Position numbers and translations under genes: made by a program | In this document: one piece after another, positions 468 through 18,247 of the stretch | How positions within the stretch are numbered: the stretch's first letter is position 1 | Layout: the number at the start of each line of letters is the position of its first letter | From: a virus | Taxonomy: Duplodnaviria > Heunggongvirae > Uroviricota > Caudoviricetes | Virus record (IMG/VR): IMGVR_UViG_3300028988_000065 | Span: 1-19,778 of that record | Reading direction: 5' to 3' (one strand) | DNA: 19,778 bases | Notes under the pieces: model-generated | The model's database searches: none | What the model was told of the DNA's origin: nothing | The model's input: the letters and a program-made list of their open reading frames with translations, nothing else

Positions 468-863
468 CTAACCTCGCATGTCAAAGCCAGATTTCTGAAA
501 ATCTCTGTAGACTTCCGGATTGTTGAAGGCCGGAAATTTGGCTTTATGAGCTGCGGACTTTATCGCTTCGCAATAGGCTTTATCACCGTTACTGGTAGAT
601 ATTTTTAACGCCGTGCCATCCTGAGAGAATTCCATATGCAACCTGCATTTTTTCCCTTTCCAGTTATGCGGCTCATCAAGTTTGGCATTAATTGCAGCTC
701 TGATTCCCCGCGCTTGCGCCCCCCATTCATCCTGATCATCCCAGCGTCCTGAACTGCAACTACCTGTAGCAGTAGTTTTGTGGCAATCTGAAGGGTGTAA
801 AGGTGTGCATCCCGCAACAAAACCGACCCAAAAAGTCAACATAACGATTTTCTTTAATCCCAC
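468..863 (-). CDS. Lipoprotein with TolA C-terminal domain (domain III)-like region, 131 aa; paralog of 1014..1442
   Basis: GTG start preceded by GAGGAG RBS. N-terminus MGLKKIVMLTFWVGFVAGC is a lipoprotein signal peptide with lipobox VAGC. C-terminal part (KKCRLHMEF...DGTALKI...YCEAIKSAAHKAKFPAFNNPEVYRDFQ) parallels TolA domain III (GKTCTLRIKLAPDGMLLDI...LCQAALAAAKLAKIPKPPSQAVYEVFK), recalled from memory. Confidence 0.75.
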   Translation of the reverse strand: MGLKKIVMLTFWVGFVAGCTPLHPSDCHKTTATGSCSSGRWDDQDEWGAQARGIRAAINAKLDEPHNWKGKKCRLHMEFSQDGTALKISTSNGDKAYCEAIKSAAHKAKFPAFNNPEVYRDFQKSGFDMRG

Positions 864-1013
864 TTCTTGCTCCTCAATCCATTAAAATCTCAGCAATAGT
901 AGTTGTTACGTCCGCCACTGGCTCAGAGCTGACTATCCGCTAAATTTAGCTCAGTGCCGTAGCTGTGTCAGAACAAACCTAAGCCGAAACCGTTTATTAC
1001 AAAACAATAAATA

Positions 1014-1442
1014 TCAGGGTTTAAAATCCAGCACCCCATTTTGAAATACTTTATATACTTCCGGCGAAGGGGGGGCAGGTATATCAGCATTCTTTATCGC
1101 ATTCATCGCTTCACGACATAAATCGAGGTCTCCACTTTCTCTTTTAACCTCCAGTAGAAGGCCATTCGGGGCCATATGCATTCTCAGTGTACACTCTTTT
1201 CCTGAATACTTACTCGCATCCCCGAACTGTTTTTCGATGGCGCTCTTGATTTGATGGGCATACAGACGGATATCCTCACTAACATCAGAAGTACGTTCAG
1301 ATGAACTCACATACTGTGTCTCTATTGCTTTATCGGAGTAATATGATGTACGGTCATGATAATTTGTCGATACAGCATCAGTGCACCCGATAATAATCCC
1401 ACTAATAATCAACGTAAGAATTGATGCGCTACGAAAACCCAT
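1014..1442 (-). CDS. Lipoprotein with TolA C-terminal domain (domain III)-like region, 142 aa
   Basis: ATG at 1442 with GAGGA RBS. Signal peptide MGFRSASILTLIISGIIIGC has lipobox IIGC. C-terminal 80 aa (YAHQIKSAIEKQFGDASKYSGKECTLRMHMAPNGLLLEVKRESGDLDLCREAMNAIKNADIPAPPSPEVYKVFQNGVLDFKP) is closely similar to the E. coli TolA C-terminus (YAGQIKSAIESKFYDASSYAGKTCTLRIKLAPDGMLLDIKPEGGDPALCQAALAAAKLAKIPKPPSQAVYEVFKNAPLDFKP), including both Cys. Confidence 0.8.
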   Translation of the reverse strand: MGFRSASILTLIISGIIIGCTDAVSTNYHDRTSYYSDKAIETQYVSSSERTSDVSEDIRLYAHQIKSAIEKQFGDASKYSGKECTLRMHMAPNGLLLEVKRESGDLDLCREAMNAIKNADIPAPPSPEVYKVFQNGVLDFKP

Positions 1443-1471: not shown

Positions 1472-1501
1472 ATTATATATACCGTTGTTTTGGACGCTCA
1501 A
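1472..1501 (-). promoter_or_regulatory. Candidate sigma70 promoter for the TolA-like lipoprotein cassette
   Basis: On the - strand: -35 TTGAGC (plus 1496-1501), 18-bp spacer, -10 TATAAT (plus 1472-1477), about 30 nt upstream of the ATG at 1442. Confidence 0.45.
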
Positions 1502-2379
1502 ACAGCGAATCAGATCAAATAAAACGCACATTTGTTAACATTTACACAAAGTCTGCGTGGGATATTCTGAAAGAATATCCATAATGTGGAGAGAATCTAT
1601 TGAAGTGCATGGTGCCGGGTGCCTCCCGGTGAACAAAATGTTCGTGATACCTGTCGGCGACAGAAAAGGTTAATGGTATCACCCCACCGCACAGGGGGAT
1701 TCACCATGCAGGAGTTTTCTTAGCAAACTCACTGCGCGCCCGGCAACTCCCAACCACATAAAATGCGGAGTTTGTGGCATTTATGCATATAACTCGCAGG
1801 AATTATCTTAAAAAACTGATGTCGATCCGGATTAAAAAGAAGCAGGTCATCATCAGATGACTGGAAAAAAGGAAAACAAAAAATACTCATCATACAGTTT
1901 TGATTGCAGGGATGAGCCTGCTATGCACAATATGCAGAATATAAGCAAGATAAAAATATGCAGGCATATTATTTCGGATTTTGTTATTAACACAACCTTT
2001 TTAATAATCATTTGGCATACAATAAACCAGCCCAGAAAGAACCGCCTAAACAGGCGGTTGGTCAATACAAAGGATGCTTCGTCTTTATTATAGTAATCTG
2101 AGGCGTCGGGTGTCTTGTATCAGACAACATATTGTCCCGCTAAACAGCGAATTACAAACCACCCTGCAATGATCTCTCATCTCATTTTATATGAGTTGAC
2201 GACATCAGGATAACGCATCATCAGCCCCTGCCAAGAAATATCAAAACTCCCGCCAGCAATGTGTTATCACAATATTGTAAAAAAAACACAGCACCGAAAC
2301 TATAACTGGTCTCTGTTATAATTTGGAGCAGAAAGACCAGTTGCCCAACTAGCAGCATTCTCCCCTGCTTTCCTGACGT

Positions 2380-2407
2380 AAAAAAAACCGCATTAAGCGG
2401 TTTTTTT
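2380..2407 (-). terminator. Bidirectional intrinsic terminator; candidate tR' downstream of Q
   Basis: A8-CCGC-ATTAA-GCGG-T7 perfect hairpin with U-tracts on both strands, about 80 nt downstream of the Q stop on the - strand. Confidence 0.6.
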
Positions 2408-2462
2408 ACGATGTCCATGTCTGCAATCCGCCTCGCGATACAGCTTTGCGAAGCATAGCAAA

Positions 2463-2491
2463 ATTGAAGCAGTTTATACGTAAGAAATCAA
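2463..2491 (-). promoter_or_regulatory. Candidate late promoter PR' overlapping the 3' end of Q (weak match)
   Basis: On the - strand: TTGATT (plus 2486-2491), 17 bp, TTCAAT (plus 2463-2468). The position between Q and the hairpin fits the lambdoid PR'-qut-tR' layout, but the hexamers are poor. Confidence 0.25.
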
Positions 2492-4367: not shown

Positions 4368-5706
4368 CATAAGCGCTAACTTAAGGGTTGTGGTATTACG
4401 CCTGATATGATTTAACGTGCCGATGAATTACTCTCACGATAACTGGTCAGCAATTCTGGCCCATATTGGTAAGCCCGAAGAACTGGATACTTCGGCACGT
4501 AATGCCGGGGCTCTAACCCGCCGCCGCGAAATTCGTGATGCTGCAACTCTGCTACGTCTGGGGCTGGCTTACGGCCCCGGGGGGATGTCATTACGTGAAG
4601 TCACTGCATGGGCTCAGCTCCATGACGTTGCAACATTATCTGACGTGGCTCTCCTGAAGCGGCTGCGGAATGCCGCCGACTGGTTTGGCATACTTGCCGC
4701 ACAAACACTTGCTGTACGCGCCGCAGTTACGGGTTGTACAAGCGGAAAGAGATTGCGTCTTGTCGATGGAACAGCAATCAGTGCGCCCGGGGGCGGCAGC
4801 GCTGAATGGCGACTACATATGGGATATGATCCTCATACCTGTCAGTTCACTGATTTTGAGCTAACCGACAGCAGAGACGCTGAACGGCTGGACCGATTTG
4901 CGCAAACGGCAGACGAGATACGCATTGCTGACCGGGGATTCGGTTCGCGTCCCGAATGTATCCGCTCACTTGCTTTTGGAGAAGCTGATTATATCGTCCG
5001 GGTTCACTGGCGAGGATTGCGCTGGTTAACTGCAGAAGGAATGCGCTTTGACATGATGGGTTTTCTGCGCGGGCTGGATTGCGGTAAGAACGGTGAAACC
5101 ACTGTAATGATAGGCAATTCAGGTAATAAAAAAGCCGGAGCTCCCTTTCCGGCACGTCTCATTGCCGTATCACTTCCTCCCGAAAAAGCATTAATCAGTA
5201 AAACCCGACTGCTCAGCGAGAATCGTCGAAAAGGACGAGTAGTTCAGGCGGAAACGCTGGAAGCAGCGGGCCATGTGCTATTGCTAACATCATTACCGGA
5301 AGATGAATATTCAGCAGAGCAAGTGGCTGATTGTTACCGTCTGCGATGGCAAATTGAACTGGCTTTTAAGCGGCTCAAAAGTTTGCTGCACCTGGATGCT
5401 TTGCGTGCAAAGGAACCTGAACTCGCGAAAGCGTGGATATTTGCTAATCTACTCGCCGCATTTTTAATTGACGACATAATCCAGCCATCGCTGGATTTCC
5501 CCCCCAGAAGTGCCGGATCCGAAAAGAAGAACTAACTCGTTGTGGAGAATAACAAAAATGGTCATCTGGAGCTTACAGGTGGCCATTCGTGGGACAGTAT
5601 CCCTGACAGCCTACAAAACGCAATTGAAGAACGCGAGGCATCGTCTTAACGAGGCACCGAGGCGTCGCATTCTTCAGATGGTTCAACCCTTAAGTTAGCG
5701 CTTATG
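4368..5706 (+). mobile_element. IS186 (IS4 family) insertion sequence, about 1.34 kb, apparently intact
   Basis: Terminal inverted repeats CATAAGCGCTAACTTAAGGGTTG (4368-4390) and its reverse complement (5684-5706). Single transposase ORF. Flanked by a 10-bp direct repeat. Confidence 0.9.
4423..5535 (+). CDS. insL: IS186 transposase (DDE, IS4 family), 370 aa
   Basis: Translation MNYSHDNWSAILAHIGKPEELDTSARNAG...YRLRWQIELAFKRLKS matches IS186 InsL as I recall it, including the IS4-family Y-R-E-K signature region. Confidence 0.9.
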   Translation: MNYSHDNWSAILAHIGKPEELDTSARNAGALTRRREIRDAATLLRLGLAYGPGGMSLREVTAWAQLHDVATLSDVALLKRLRNAADWFGILAAQTLAVRAAVTGCTSGKRLRLVDGTAISAPGGGSAEWRLHMGYDPHTCQFTDFELTDSRDAERLDRFAQTADEIRIADRGFGSRPECIRSLAFGEADYIVRVHWRGLRWLTAEGMRFDMMGFLRGLDCGKNGETTVMIGNSGNKKAGAPFPARLIAVSLPPEKALISKTRLLSENRRKGRVVQAETLEAAGHVLLLTSLPEDEYSAEQVADCYRLRWQIELAFKRLKSLLHLDALRAKEPELAKAWIFANLLAAFLIDDIIQPSLDFPPRSAGSEKKN

Positions 5707-17850: not shown

Positions 17851-18045
17851 ATGAGATATGACAATGTTAAACCATGTCCATTTTGTGGTTGTCCATCAGT
17901 AACGGTGAAAGCCATTTCAGGATATTACCGAGCGAAGTGTAACGGATGCGAATCCCGAACCGGTTATGGTGGAAGTGAAAAAGAAGCACTCGAAAGATGG
18001 AATAAACGAACCACTGGAAATAATAATGGAGGTGTTCATGTATAA
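17851..18045 (+). CDS. ralR: RalR (restriction alleviation; reported type I toxin/DNase), 64 aa
   Basis: Translation MRYDNVKPCPFCGCPSVTVKAISGYYRAKCNGCESRTGYGGSEKEALERWNKRTTGNNNGGVHV. Confidence 0.85.
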   Translation: MRYDNVKPCPFCGCPSVTVKAISGYYRAKCNGCESRTGYGGSEKEALERWNKRTTGNNNGGVHV

Positions 18046-18247
18046 AATTACCGCCACTATTGAAAAGGAAGGTGGCACTCCTACTAACTGGACAAGATAT
18101 TCAAAATCTAAACTAACGAAATCAGAATGCGAAAAAATGCTCTCAGGTAAAAAAGAAGCAGGCGTTTCCAGAGAGCAGAAAGTAAAACTGATAAATTTTA
18201 ATTGCGAGAAACTTCAGTCCTCGAGAATTGCATTGTATTCAAATTAA
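18038..18247 (+). CDS. ydaC: YdaC, 69 aa
   Basis: GGAGG RBS. The ATG overlaps the 3' end of ralR. Translation MYKITATIEKEGGTPTNWTRYSKSKLTKSECEKMLSGKKEAG... Confidence 0.75.
   Translation: MYKITATIEKEGGTPTNWTRYSKSKLTKSECEKMLSGKKEAGVSREQKVKLINFNCEKLQSSRIALYSN

What the first reader, a model, noticed from the sequence alone, without database searches (positions are those of the whole stretch)
1502..2379. About 0.9 kb without a convincing ORF between the candidate tR' and the lipoprotein cassette, containing nested perfect hairpins
In lambdoid phages the holin usually follows tR' closely. Here a long AT-rich stretch intervenes, with no credible protein-coding ORF (only short AT-rich ORFs with weak or TTG starts). 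It contains a nested structure GTGATACC-[CTGTC-GGC-GACAG]-...-GGTATCAC (1646-1681), a CCGGG-TGCCT-CCCGG hairpin (1614-1628) and an AACCGCC-TAAACA-GGCGGTT hairpin (2040-2059). It could hold an sRNA, a put-like antitermination RNA, or decayed moron remnants.
Basis: seen in the sequence. Interest (0 to 1): 0.4.

Follow-up and report, generated by a model that had tools for sequence, protein, structure and literature searches.

The report
Known prophage small RNA, decayed neighbours
The "empty" 0.9 kb between the late-gene regulator and the lysis genes of this E. coli prophage is non-coding DNA that holds one copy of an already catalogued prophage small RNA (STnc100), the decayed remains of a second copy, and a row of transcription stop signals, so it is ordinary for this kind of phage.

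Summary
The three hairpins exist, with coordinates off by 1-2 nt, and no reading frame in 1502-2379 is conserved or matches a protein family. All relevant features lie on the minus strand, the sense strand of the late operon.

Two of the hairpins are helices P3 and P5 of a full-length match to Rfam STnc100 (RF02076; 1739-1553; 86.6 bits, threshold 47). STnc100 is the Hfq-bound sRNA family (EcOnc27/sRNA103, PasD) known from the "moron insertion site" between Q and the lysis genes of lambdoid prophages.

The third hairpin (2040-2059) is a conserved intrinsic terminator. It closes a decayed STnc100-like paralogue, which is recognisable only through relatives.

The rest is terminator-like hairpins (T1, T3) and conserved non-coding blocks. 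In related prophages these blocks follow a tRNA gene array that is missing here.

The window copy is a structural variant. A nested helix replaces the family's pseudoknot, the 3' tail belongs to the downstream TolA-like lipoprotein module, there is no convergent anti-sRNA partner, and there is no strong terminator.

Expression was not tested. Verdict: already known kind, low interest.

The parts
2463..2491 (-). Tentative PR'-like promoter (context, outside the finding). The -35 TTGATT (2491-2486) overlaps the stop codon of the DUF1133 gene; a 17-nt spacer follows, then the -10 TTCAAT (2468-2463).
   Evidence: Read from the sequence. Both hexamers and the spacing are conserved in strain M19. 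Only 8 of 12 consensus positions match, so the promoter scan did not list it. This is inference.
2377..2454 (-). Together they would give a short leader transcript of about 75 nt.
   Evidence: Fold of -30 kcal/mol, z = -4.0, 0 of 200 shuffles as good. Inverted repeats I1/I2. Only sub-threshold resemblance to isrK and AgrB.
2279..2329 (-). T1: an AU-rich hairpin (2329-2291) followed by U8 (2286-2279). It looks like an intrinsic terminator. In relatives it lies just downstream of a tRNA gene array that is absent from the window.
   Evidence: Fold of -13.7 kcal/mol, z = -2.35. The motif GTGCTG..TTTTTTAC is conserved in six prophages. The window has no tRNA.
2199..2278 (-). HP-A: a long imperfect hairpin with a conserved apical block (TTTTGATATTTCTTGGCAGGGGCTGATGATGC). 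It forms the 5' part of the decayed STnc100-like element.
   Evidence: RNAalifold on 8 variants predicts 30 pairs, 6 of them with compensatory changes. 95% of cells are paired, against 32-63% when the partner is slid, and 0 of 500 shuffles reach the covariation score. Many G.U pairs mean it can form only in minus-strand RNA. In the window alone it is weak (z = -0.4).
2060..2198 (-). Decayed core of a second, divergent STnc100-like element. A 17-nt deletion removes the 5' half of the P5 hairpin (CGGGAGGCACCCG in relatives), and P1 and P2 are degraded.
   Evidence: The homologous stretch of strain AH19B041 aligns end to end to the STnc100 model at 29.9 bits, below threshold. The window stretch gives no hit at E <= 10. 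The deletion is visible in alignment A2, columns 316-332, and is shared with the O170:H18 strain.
2032..2059 (-). It is the intrinsic terminator of the decayed element.
   Evidence: The stem is invariant and the loop variable in six prophages, which carry U7-U9 tails. It aligns to the terminator of the STnc100 model in AH19B041. Most copies of the window lineage have TTCTTTTT where the window has TTCTTTCT.
1864..2031 (-). Block C: a conserved non-coding block, including TTAATAACAAAATCCGAAATAATATGCCTGCATATT. Its function is not established.
   Evidence: It is conserved in five prophages. RNAalifold gives no net covariation support, with a covariation term of +1.32. No Rfam match at E <= 5.
1834..1863 (-). 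T3: a hairpin (1863-1843) with a CUUCUUUUU tail. It looks like an intrinsic terminator.
   Evidence: Listed by the terminator scan. Fold of -7.8 kcal/mol, z = -3.1, 0 of 200 shuffles as good. The stem varies with compensation among relatives: CCAGUCAUC/GAUGACUGG, CCAGCCA/UGGCUGG and GGGCC/GGCCC.
1718..1746 (-). Promoter-like site of the STnc100 copy: -35 TTGCCG (1746-1741), a 17-nt spacer, then TG-c-TAAGAA / CTAAGA (1723-1718). The predicted 5' end of the RNA is at about 1709.
   Evidence: The same spacing and position are seen across family members: TTGTCT, TTGATT or TTGACT, 17 nt, TTAAAA, then 7-8 nt to GCAUGG. The annotated start of PasD2 (741157, PMC8550237 Table S6) is the G of GCAUGG. 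The -10 of the window copy is weaker than in those members. This is inference.
1553..1739 (-). STnc100 (Rfam RF02076) family member.

The core is a five-way junction at 1709-1606:
- P1: GCAUGGUG/CACCAUGC.
- P2: CCCC/GGGG.
- P3: GUGAUACC/GGUAUCAC (1682-1644), with the inner CUGUC/GACAG hairpin.
- P4: GAAC/GUUC.
- P5: CCGGG/CCCGG (1629-1615).

The 3' tail runs from 1605 and carries the hairpin GGAUAUUCU/AGAAUAUCC (1580-1560).
   Evidence: Score of 86.6 bits against a gathering score of 47, E = 1e-17, model positions 1-206 of 206. Fold of -45 kcal/mol with MFE equal to the centroid, z = -3.6. Helices are kept and loops vary in the four nested-type variants.
1514..1558 (-). A weak hairpin (ACGCA..UGCGU) followed by UUUUAUUU. 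It is the only terminator-like candidate for the window's STnc100 transcript.
   Evidence: Fold of -8.8 kcal/mol, z = -0.9, not better than chance. The canonical terminator GCCCCUCUCCGGAGGGGCUUUU of most family members is absent.
1472..1501 (-). Sigma-70-like promoter of the downstream TolA-C-terminal lipoprotein moron: TTGAGC, 18 nt, TATAAT.
   Evidence: Promoter scan, 10 of 12 positions. The gene at 1442-1014 matches Pfam TolA at 82.6 bits.

Best explanation
Positions 1502-2379 are the non-coding leader of the late operon of a Rac-like lambdoid prophage of E. coli. The late operon is read on the minus strand. This stretch is the known "moron insertion site" between the Q-type regulator and the lysis genes.

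**Shown: contents of the leader**
- One intact member of the STnc100 sRNA family (RF02076; the family of EcOnc27/sRNA103 and PasD).
- Two more terminator-like hairpins (T1, T3) and a conserved block of unknown role (block C).
- No tRNA array, although related prophages carry one between tR' and T1.

**Inferred: mechanism**
- In the lysogen the STnc100 copy is transcribed from its own weak sigma-70 promoter, starting near 1709. The RNA is about 200 nt if it stops at the weak hairpin at 1558-1514; otherwise it reads on towards the lipoprotein gene.
- As described for its relatives, it would act in trans as an Hfq-associated base-pairing RNA. The invariant structured core would serve as a scaffold or protein-binding module. 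The variable 3' tail would carry the target-recognition sequence, as the seed of PasD does.
- The run of terminators on the late strand (tR', T1, T2, T3) keeps the lysis genes silent. On induction, RNA polymerase modified by the Q-like DUF1133 protein reads through them.
- The conserved core also serves as a homology anchor for recombination. From 1633 downstream, the window is identical to a Qin-like prophage that carries a different STnc100 core but the same 3' tail and lipoprotein module.
For: **Family membership.**
- Rfam hit of 86.6 bits against a threshold of 47, full length, on the minus strand.
- The core fold is well defined: -45 kcal/mol, z = -3.6.
- P1, P2 and P5 sequences are identical to those of about 50 distinct family cores fetched from viral contigs.

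**Genomic context.** The order is DUF1367, YbcO, DUF1133/Q-like, the spacer, two TolA-C lipoproteins, then the holin.

**No coding signal.**

**Relatives.**
- Their homologous spacers follow tRNA arrays and are likewise unannotated.
- They contain 1-4 tandem STnc100 copies.
- The AH19B041 homologue of window 2285-2036 aligns to the whole STnc100 model at 29.9 bits, with T2 as its terminator.
- HP-A is supported by covariation.

**Recombination.** The breakpoint at 1633/1634 inside the core is seen in several hundred E. coli genomes.

**Literature.**
- Hfq-bound sRNA dyads between PR' and the lysis genes in at least eight Sakai prophages (PMC4104026, PMC7873438).
- STnc100 overlaps the Hfq-bound EcOnc27/sRNA103 downstream of stx2B (PMC12711010).
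- Eleven STnc100 copies are transcribed in EDL933, one confirmed by Northern blot (PMC5331693).
- PasD1 and PasD2 are Hfq-dependent RNAs of 172-173 nt (PMC8550237). They are structurally homologous to STnc100 (bioRxiv 10.64898/2026.05.13.724894).
- The annotated start of PasD2 coincides with the first base of P1.
Against: - There are no expression data for this copy.
- Its -10 element (CTAAGA/TAAGAA) is weaker than in the other family members examined.
- It lacks the family's GC-rich terminator. The substitute hairpin at 1558-1514 is no better than chance (z = -0.9).
- It lacks the convergent anti-sRNA partner: no AgvB or AsxR match at E <= 5.
- The surrounding spacer shows deletions, which suggests a decaying region.
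- The near-identity of the 446 genomes that hold the whole stretch shows recent common descent, not selection.
- The promoter and terminator assignments are consensus readings only.
- The decayed-paralogue claim rests on homology to a sub-threshold hit in a relative.
Confidence: 0.75

Rival explanations
1. The whole interval, including the STnc100 copy, is inert decaying DNA of a defective prophage. The copy keeps its sequence only because the lineage is young, and it is neither expressed on its own nor functional.
For: - The -10 element is weak.
- The canonical 3' tail and terminator have been replaced.
- There is no anti-sRNA partner.
- Relative to kin, there are three deletions: the tRNA array, 17 nt in the paralogue's P5, and about 58 nt after T3.
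- The window's T2 tail carries a T-to-C change relative to most copies of its own lineage.
- HP-A and the 3' hairpin are thermodynamically unremarkable in the window.
- An IS-type transposase ORF lies nearby at 4417-5535.
Against: - All five helices of the core are perfect, and the fold is sharply defined.
- Among the four diverged nested-type variants (window, M19, O170, DEF2), changes fall in loops or keep the pairing, for example GAAC/GUUC to GGAC/GUUC.
- The nested-type core is present in 564 of 5426 complete genomes.
- Other family members are expressed and Hfq-bound (PMC5331693, PMC4104026, PMC8550237).
Confidence: 0.17
2. The structured element acts in cis on the transcript that carries it. 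It would be either a 5' leader controlling the downstream TolA-like lipoprotein genes, or a put-like or processing element of the late transcript, rather than a trans-acting sRNA.
For: - It has the same orientation as the late operon.
- There is no strong terminator between the core and the lipoprotein gene.
- The 3' tail is inherited together with the lipoprotein module in two different prophage backgrounds.
- Loops and junctions of the core are invariant, which suggests recognition by a conserved partner.
Against: - A good sigma-70-like promoter (10 of 12 positions) lies between the element and the lipoprotein gene.
- The same core precedes quite different genes elsewhere, such as an esterase or a holin.
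- In most copies it is followed by a strong terminator.
- PasD2 is a discrete 172-nt RNA.
- The prophage encodes a Q-like protein, so an RNA antiterminator is not needed.
Confidence: 0.06
3. The interval encodes one or more small proteins that automatic annotation has missed.
For: - Open frames of 63-88 codons exist.
- A 14-codon ORF (2222-2178) follows an AGGGG motif, and among relatives it shows changes that resemble third-codon-position variation.
Against: - No Pfam or PHROG match reaches threshold.
- Homologous stretches switch frame between relatives. Amino-acid identity (67%) is below nucleotide identity (83%) for the one frame that is kept in M19.
- The apparent codon pattern is explained by compensatory changes with the opposite arm of hairpin HP-A, which lies outside the ORF.
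- The putative ORF ends at different lengths, 11-33 codons, in relatives.
Confidence: 0.02

Closest known systems
STnc100 (Rfam RF02076), equivalent to EcOnc27 / sRNA103 of E. coli O157:H7
   Same: - Full-length covariance-model match.
- Identical P1, P2 and P5 helices and loops.
- Same place (between the Q-type gene and the lysis genes of a lambdoid prophage) and same orientation as the late operon.
- Promoter-like hexamers at the family's spacing.
   Different: - The middle of the core differs. Canonical members pair the strand after P2 with the loop of hairpin P4, forming a pseudoknot with at least 7 covarying sequence pairs. The window type instead has a nested 8-bp helix followed by a short P4 hairpin.
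- The 3' tail is unrelated and lacks the GC-rich terminator.
- There is no convergent partner sRNA.
PasD1 / PasD2 of enteropathogenic E. coli E2348/69
   Same: - Same family architecture and promoter layout. PasD2 starts at the G of GCAUGG.
- It lies between a DUF3927 gene and the next moron in the late leader.
- A conserved core combined with a lineage-specific 3' tail that carries the proposed seed.
   Different: - The PasD core is more degenerate than the window's: P2 is CCUCC/GGAGG and P5 is GCGGGAGGCGCC.
- The tail and terminator differ (seed UGUGAG, terminator GGCUGCGCAUUGCGCAGCC).
- PasD expression and Hfq dependence were shown by experiment. The window copy's were not.
Convergent sRNA dyads at the moron insertion site (AgvB/EcOnc06, AsxR/EcOnc27; Tree et al. 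2014, PMC4104026)
   Same: Same genomic niche downstream of PR'. A sense-strand STnc100-type RNA is present.
   Different: The antisense 51-60-nt anti-sRNA, with its conserved GCCCGCG..CGCGGGC terminator, is absent. There is no AgvB or AsxR hit at E <= 5, and the sequence after the core is the lipoprotein module instead.
StxS / lambda 6S RNA (short PR'-tR' transcripts)
   Same: Just upstream of the finding lies a promoter-like site, a 5' hairpin and a strong terminator. Together they would give a transcript of about 75 nt.
   Different: This lies outside the flagged interval. No sequence similarity was tested, and the promoter matches the consensus at only 8 of 12 positions.
HK022 put antitermination RNAs
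   Same: Structured RNA on the sense strand downstream of a phage promoter.
   Different: From general knowledge, put elements are two stem-loops directly downstream of PL/PR in a phage that lacks N-type antitermination. Here a Q-like protein is encoded, the element is a five-way junction belonging to an sRNA family, and it lies about 750 nt from the late promoter.

Membership tests
STnc100 (RF02076) | Covariance-model score at or above the curated gathering score (47 bits) | tested here: met
   86.6 bits, E = 1e-17, model positions 1-206 of 206, at 1739-1553 on the minus strand.
STnc100 (RF02076) | Closing helix P1 (GCAUGGUG/CACCAUGC), hairpin P2 (CCCC..GGGG) and hairpin P5 (CCGGG-AGGCA-CCCGG) | tested here: met
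   All three are present and perfect. They are identical to the roughly 50 distinct cores collected.
STnc100 (RF02076) | Central domain as in canonical members: the P4 hairpin loop pairs with the strand 3' of P2 | tested here: not met
   The window type has nested P3 (GUGAUACC/GGUAUCAC) followed by a short P4. It is a sub-type shared with strains M19, O170:H18 and DEF2.
STnc100 (RF02076) | Rho-independent terminator with a U tail at the 3' end | tested here: inconclusive
   The model's terminator aligns to GGAUAUUCU/AGAAUAUCC, which has no U tail. The next hairpin has UUUUAUUU but folds no better than chance.
STnc100 (RF02076) | Location in the late leader of a lambdoid prophage, on the sense strand | tested here: met
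   It lies between the DUF1133/Q-like gene and the holin, on the minus strand like both of them.
STnc100 (RF02076) | Expressed as a discrete, Hfq-bound RNA | not testable with these tools
   Shown only for relatives (PMC4104026, PMC5331693, PMC8550237).
Anti-sRNA dyad (AgvB RF02702 / AsxR RF02703) | Convergent short sRNA on the opposite strand just beyond the STnc100 terminator | tested here: not met
   No AgvB or AsxR match at E <= 5 in 1350-2550.
tRNA genes of the late leader (as in Stx phages and relatives) | tRNA genes between tR' and the spacer | tested here: not met
   ARAGORN finds none in the window, and Rfam finds no tRNA. Relatives have 2-4.
Second STnc100-like element (2278-2032) | Covariance-model match to RF02076 | tested here: not met
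   No hit at E <= 10 in 1990-2340. The homologue in AH19B041 scores 29.9 bits, below threshold. The window stretch is therefore filed as a decayed relative, not a member.
put-type antitermination RNA | Paired stem-loops immediately downstream of the promoter, acting on RNA polymerase in cis | not tested
   No Rfam family other than STnc100 reached its gathering score in 1350-2550, and no put-specific comparison was made. Context argues against it: a Q-like gene is present, and the element lies about 750 nt from the candidate promoter.

The most novel reading that the evidence does not exclude
The late leader of this group of prophages would be a tandem array of modules from one RNA superfamily, in intact, variant and decayed states.

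- Each module would have its own terminator.
- Each would be built from an invariant structured scaffold, joined to an exchangeable 3' tail that recombines together with the downstream moron. In most members the scaffold is a pseudoknotted multi-helix junction, possibly a binding platform for Hfq or CsrA.
- On this reading, the HP-A plus divergent-core elements that sit right after the tRNA arrays would be an undescribed subfamily lying below Rfam's threshold.
- The window's nested-helix core would be a natural re-wiring of the pseudoknot.
Probability: 0.3. Interest if true: 0.45.

Novelty: already known. Interest (0 to 1): 0.2.

Why it matters
Mostly it closes the question. The "missing gene" between Q and the lysis cassette is a catalogued prophage sRNA with decayed relatives around it, in a zone already known to collect such RNAs.

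The modest added value is practical:
- NCBI's RefSeq annotation (PGAP) lists nothing here in any of the genomes listed. The nested-type core is nonetheless present in about 10% of complete E. coli genomes (564 of 5426).
- The family's core shows a covarying pseudoknot. I did not see it mentioned in the papers I read.
- The core's boundary is a recombination joint that swaps 3' tails and downstream morons. This may explain how members of the family acquire different target sets.

Tried and rejected
1. **Protein-coding ORFs.** The eight longest frames were scanned against Pfam and PHROGs, and nothing reached threshold. The best was DUF7170 at 18.5 bits against a cut-off of 27, for a frame with no start codon. 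Frames are not kept in relatives.

2. **A conserved 14-codon mini-ORF (2222-2178) behind an AGGGG motif.** Rejected. Its apparent third-position variation is compensatory pairing with the 5' arm of hairpin HP-A.

3. **tRNA remnants.** None found.

4. **AgvB, AsxR, Esr41 or any other Rfam family in the spacer.** There were only chance-level hits: isrK and AgrB on the tR' hairpin, and RNAI and sroD on T2.

5. **Similarity of T1 to the 3' end of PasA.** Rejected. PasA lies on the opposite strand in E2348/69, and the resemblance is a short motif only.

6. **A sigma-54 reading of the conserved TGGCAGGGGC block.** The GG/GC spacing does not fit, by inspection.

7. **A conserved structure for block C.** RNAalifold gives no net covariation support.

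8. **A tRNA-like reading of the five-way junction.** The topology looks superficially like a cloverleaf next to tRNA arrays. But there is no tRNA model hit at E <= 5 and no ARAGORN call, and canonical members have a pseudoknot instead.

9. **The phage collection.** Only the core and the PR' segment match, for example downstream of stx1B in H-19B. The spacer itself is absent from deposited phage genomes.
Full report
**Context.** The genes around the finding all read on the minus strand. In order they are:
- DUF1367 (3916-3317).
- YbcO/DUF1364 (3317-3027).
- A 180-aa DUF1133 protein with a marginal Phage_antitermQ match (3030-2488).
- The flagged interval.
- Two TolA-C-terminal lipoproteins (1442-1014 and 863-468).
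- A holin (273-1).

A RalA match at 18044-18222, and trkG next to the lysis genes in an almost identical genome, mark this as a Rac-like lambdoid prophage of E. coli. The whole stretch 1400-2500 occurs at >= 99% identity in 446 of 5426 complete E. coli genomes. The RefSeq annotation lists nothing between the lipoprotein gene and the DUF1133 gene.

**Check of the observation.** The hairpins are real.
- GTGATACC/GGTATCAC lies at 1644-1651/1675-1682, with CTGTC-GGC-GACAG inside it.
- CCGGG-TGCCT-CCCGG lies at 1615-1629.
- AACCGCC-TAAACA-GGCGGTT lies at 2040-2059.

GC content is 0.41, against 0.45 for the window. No frame is credible as a gene:
- Nothing reaches a Pfam or PHROG cut-off.
- In related prophages the nucleotide similarity passes through all frames and changes frame.
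- The one frame kept in strain M19 has lower amino-acid identity (67%) than nucleotide identity (83%).

**What the two left-hand hairpins are.** An Rfam scan gives a full-length match to STnc100 (RF02076) at 1739-1553 on the minus strand, at 86.6 bits against a gathering score of 47. Positions 1709-1598 fold into a sharply defined five-way junction: -45 kcal/mol, MFE equal to the centroid, z = -3.6. Its helices are:
- P1: GCAUGGUG/CACCAUGC.
- P2: CCCC/GGGG.
- P4: GAAC/GUUC.

From the papers I read:
- STnc100 has eleven transcribed copies in O157:H7 EDL933, one confirmed by Northern blot (PMC5331693).
- It lies just downstream of stx2B, where it overlaps the Hfq-bound EcOnc27/sRNA103 (PMC12711010, PMC7873438).
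- It belongs to the Hfq-binding sRNAs that sit between PR' and the lysis genes of at least eight Sakai prophages, the "moron insertion site" (PMC4104026).
- PasD1 and PasD2 of EPEC are Hfq-dependent RNAs of 172-173 nt (PMC8550237). They are structural homologues of STnc100 (bioRxiv 10.64898/2026.05.13.724894).

I fetched the PasD2 locus. Its annotated start is the G of GCAUGG, preceded by TTGACT, 17 nt, then TTAAAA. The window has TTGCCG, 17 nt, then CTAAGA in the same register. This predicts a 5' end near 1709 from a weaker promoter.

**How the window copy differs from the rest of the family.** I collected about 55 distinct cores from viral contigs.
- P1, P2 and P5 are almost invariant, loops included.
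- In canonical members the strand after P2 is complementary to the loop of hairpin P4. At least seven different covarying sequence pairs show this, for example AUCAGC:GCUGAU, CUGGUG:CACCGG, AAUGAC:GUCAUU, CUGGCU:AGCCAG, and AAUGAUC:GAUCAUU in PasD2. That makes a pseudoknot.
- The window type is shared with strains M19, O170:H18 and DEF2. There the partner strand sits before a short P4 hairpin, which gives an ordinary nested helix.
- Among these four variants, changes fall in loops or preserve pairing.
- Downstream of P1 the window has none of the family's usual tail. The GCCCCUCUCCGGAGGGGCUUUU terminator and the convergent anti-sRNA hairpin are both missing, and there is no AgvB or AsxR hit.
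- From 1633 leftwards, the sequence is instead identical to that of a Qin-like prophage (strain ECONIH1). That prophage has a canonical core but the same tail and the same lipoprotein genes.
- The core is therefore a recombination joint, and the 3' tail travels with the downstream moron.
- The only terminator-like feature for the window RNA is a weak hairpin plus UUUUAUUU at 1558-1514, which folds no better than chance.
- A 10-of-12 sigma-70-like promoter for the lipoprotein gene follows at 1501-1472.

**The remaining 640 nt (1740-2379).** This stretch is not in deposited phage genomes. Among E. coli genomes it is limited to the window's own lineage plus a few dozen diverged relatives.

In every relative examined, the homologous sequence starts just after a tRNA gene array in the late leader and is unannotated. 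The window has no tRNA.

A six-way alignment resolves the spacer into modules on the minus strand:
- **T1:** an AU-rich hairpin plus U8 (2329-2279).
- **HP-A:** a long hairpin (2278-2199). It has 30 predicted pairs, 6 of them with compensatory changes. 95% of cells are paired against 32-63% for slid controls, and 0 of 500 shuffles reach the covariation score. There are caveats: only 8 sequences were used, and the structure was derived from the same alignment. Its many G.U pairs mean it can form only in sense-strand RNA.
- **A degraded core:** 2198-2060.
- **T2:** Its stem is invariant and its loop varies, and relatives have U7-U9 tails.
- **Block C:** conserved, with no supported structure.
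- **T3:** a terminator-like hairpin whose stem covaries.

**The decayed paralogue.**
- Rfam scans of the relatives show that these "empty" gaps are full of STnc100 copies: four in tandem in DEF2 and three in M19.
- The AH19B041 stretch homologous to window 2285-2036 aligns to the whole STnc100 model at 29.9 bits. Its helices are P1 GAGGUG/CACCUC, P2, P5 CGGGAGGCACCCG, and a terminator that corresponds to T2.
- The window stretch no longer matches. It carries a 17-nt deletion that removes half of P5, shared with the O170:H18 strain.
- A further deletion of about 58 nt lies after T3.
- I therefore read 2278-2032 as the decayed remains of a divergent STnc100-like element. This is an inference from homology, not a membership claim.

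**Mechanism.**
- *Shown:* family membership, structure, genomic niche, the absence of coding signal, the modular homology, and the recombination joint.
- *Inferred from relatives:* transcription from the copy's own promoter in the lysogen; Hfq association (and possibly CsrA association, since PasD2 is the most abundant RNA in CsrA ternary complexes, bioRxiv 10.64898/2026.08.12.744399); and target recognition through the variable 3' tail, by analogy with the PasD seed next to its terminator (PMC8550237 supplement).
- *Inferred from general lambdoid biology:* the series tR', T1, T2, T3 blocks late transcription until Q-modified polymerase reads through.
- The main rival is that the copy is an inert relic. 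I cannot exclude this without expression data.
- The put-like and small-protein readings have little or no support.

**Novelty.** The element is a member of a curated Rfam family, in a position already described for that family, so the finding is already known. The variant core, the pseudoknot of canonical members, the sub-threshold paralogues after the tRNA arrays, and the moron-linked tail exchange are details worth a note. None of them is a new kind of system.

Noticed in passing
L006 2810-3925 (E. coli DEF2); L003 2976-3438 and 4160-4333 (E. coli M19): These prophages carry tandem arrays of STnc100 in the late leader: four copies in DEF2 and three in M19. The arrays account for unannotated gaps of up to about 2 kb after the phage tRNA genes.
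   Followed up: partly
About 50 canonical STnc100 cores from viral contigs (L008-L127) and PasD2 (L128 3158-3329): In canonical family members the strand just 3' of P2 is complementary to the loop of hairpin P4, with at least seven distinct covarying sequence pairs, which implies a pseudoknot. I did not see this mentioned in the papers I read, and Rfam's consensus structure line has no pseudoknot.
   Followed up: partly
window 1633/1634: A mosaic breakpoint lies inside the STnc100 core, at the P4/P5 boundary. Several hundred E. coli genomes are identical to the window from 1400 to 1633 and unrelated beyond that point. They carry a Qin-like prophage with a canonical core, tRNA genes and a DUF3927 gene upstream.
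   Followed up: yes
window 2199-2278 and homologues in L003-L007, L130, L223: A long sense-strand RNA hairpin (HP-A) is conserved and supported by covariation. It has a nearly invariant apical block, TTTTG.TATTTC.TGGCAGGGGCTGATGATGC, and lies between the post-tRNA terminator and a divergent STnc100-like core. Its role is unknown.
   Followed up: partly
window 2377-2491: Directly after the DUF1133 stop codon there is a promoter-like pair of hexamers, a 7-bp hairpin and a strong bidirectional terminator. Together they would give a transcript of about 75 nt, reminiscent of StxS or lambda 6S RNA. The segment 2426-2480 recurs at 92-95% identity in several Escherichia phages.
   Followed up: partly
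window 18044-18222 (-): Full-length RalA, the antitoxin sRNA of the RalR/RalA system, at 225 bits. It marks the Rac-type early region.
   Followed up: no
window 4417-5535 (+): A 372-aa ORF whose sequence I recognise from memory as an IS186/IS4-type transposase. It lies just beyond the DUF1367 gene. In the near-identical genome SCU-104 that position holds the iteA/iteS anti-phage genes instead. Not tested.
   Followed up: no
window 468-1442 (-), with promoter-like site at 1472-1501: Two consecutive TolA-C-terminal-domain lipoprotein genes sit between the sRNA and the holin. They have their own sigma-70-like promoter, which is the classic layout of a moron. The module occurs in more than 1000 E. 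coli genomes in at least two prophage backgrounds.
   Followed up: partly
L007 1792-1989: A further sub-threshold STnc100-like match (36 bits) lies upstream of the tRNA genes in strain AH19B041. It suggests that more diverged relatives of the family exist than Rfam's threshold captures.
   Followed up: no
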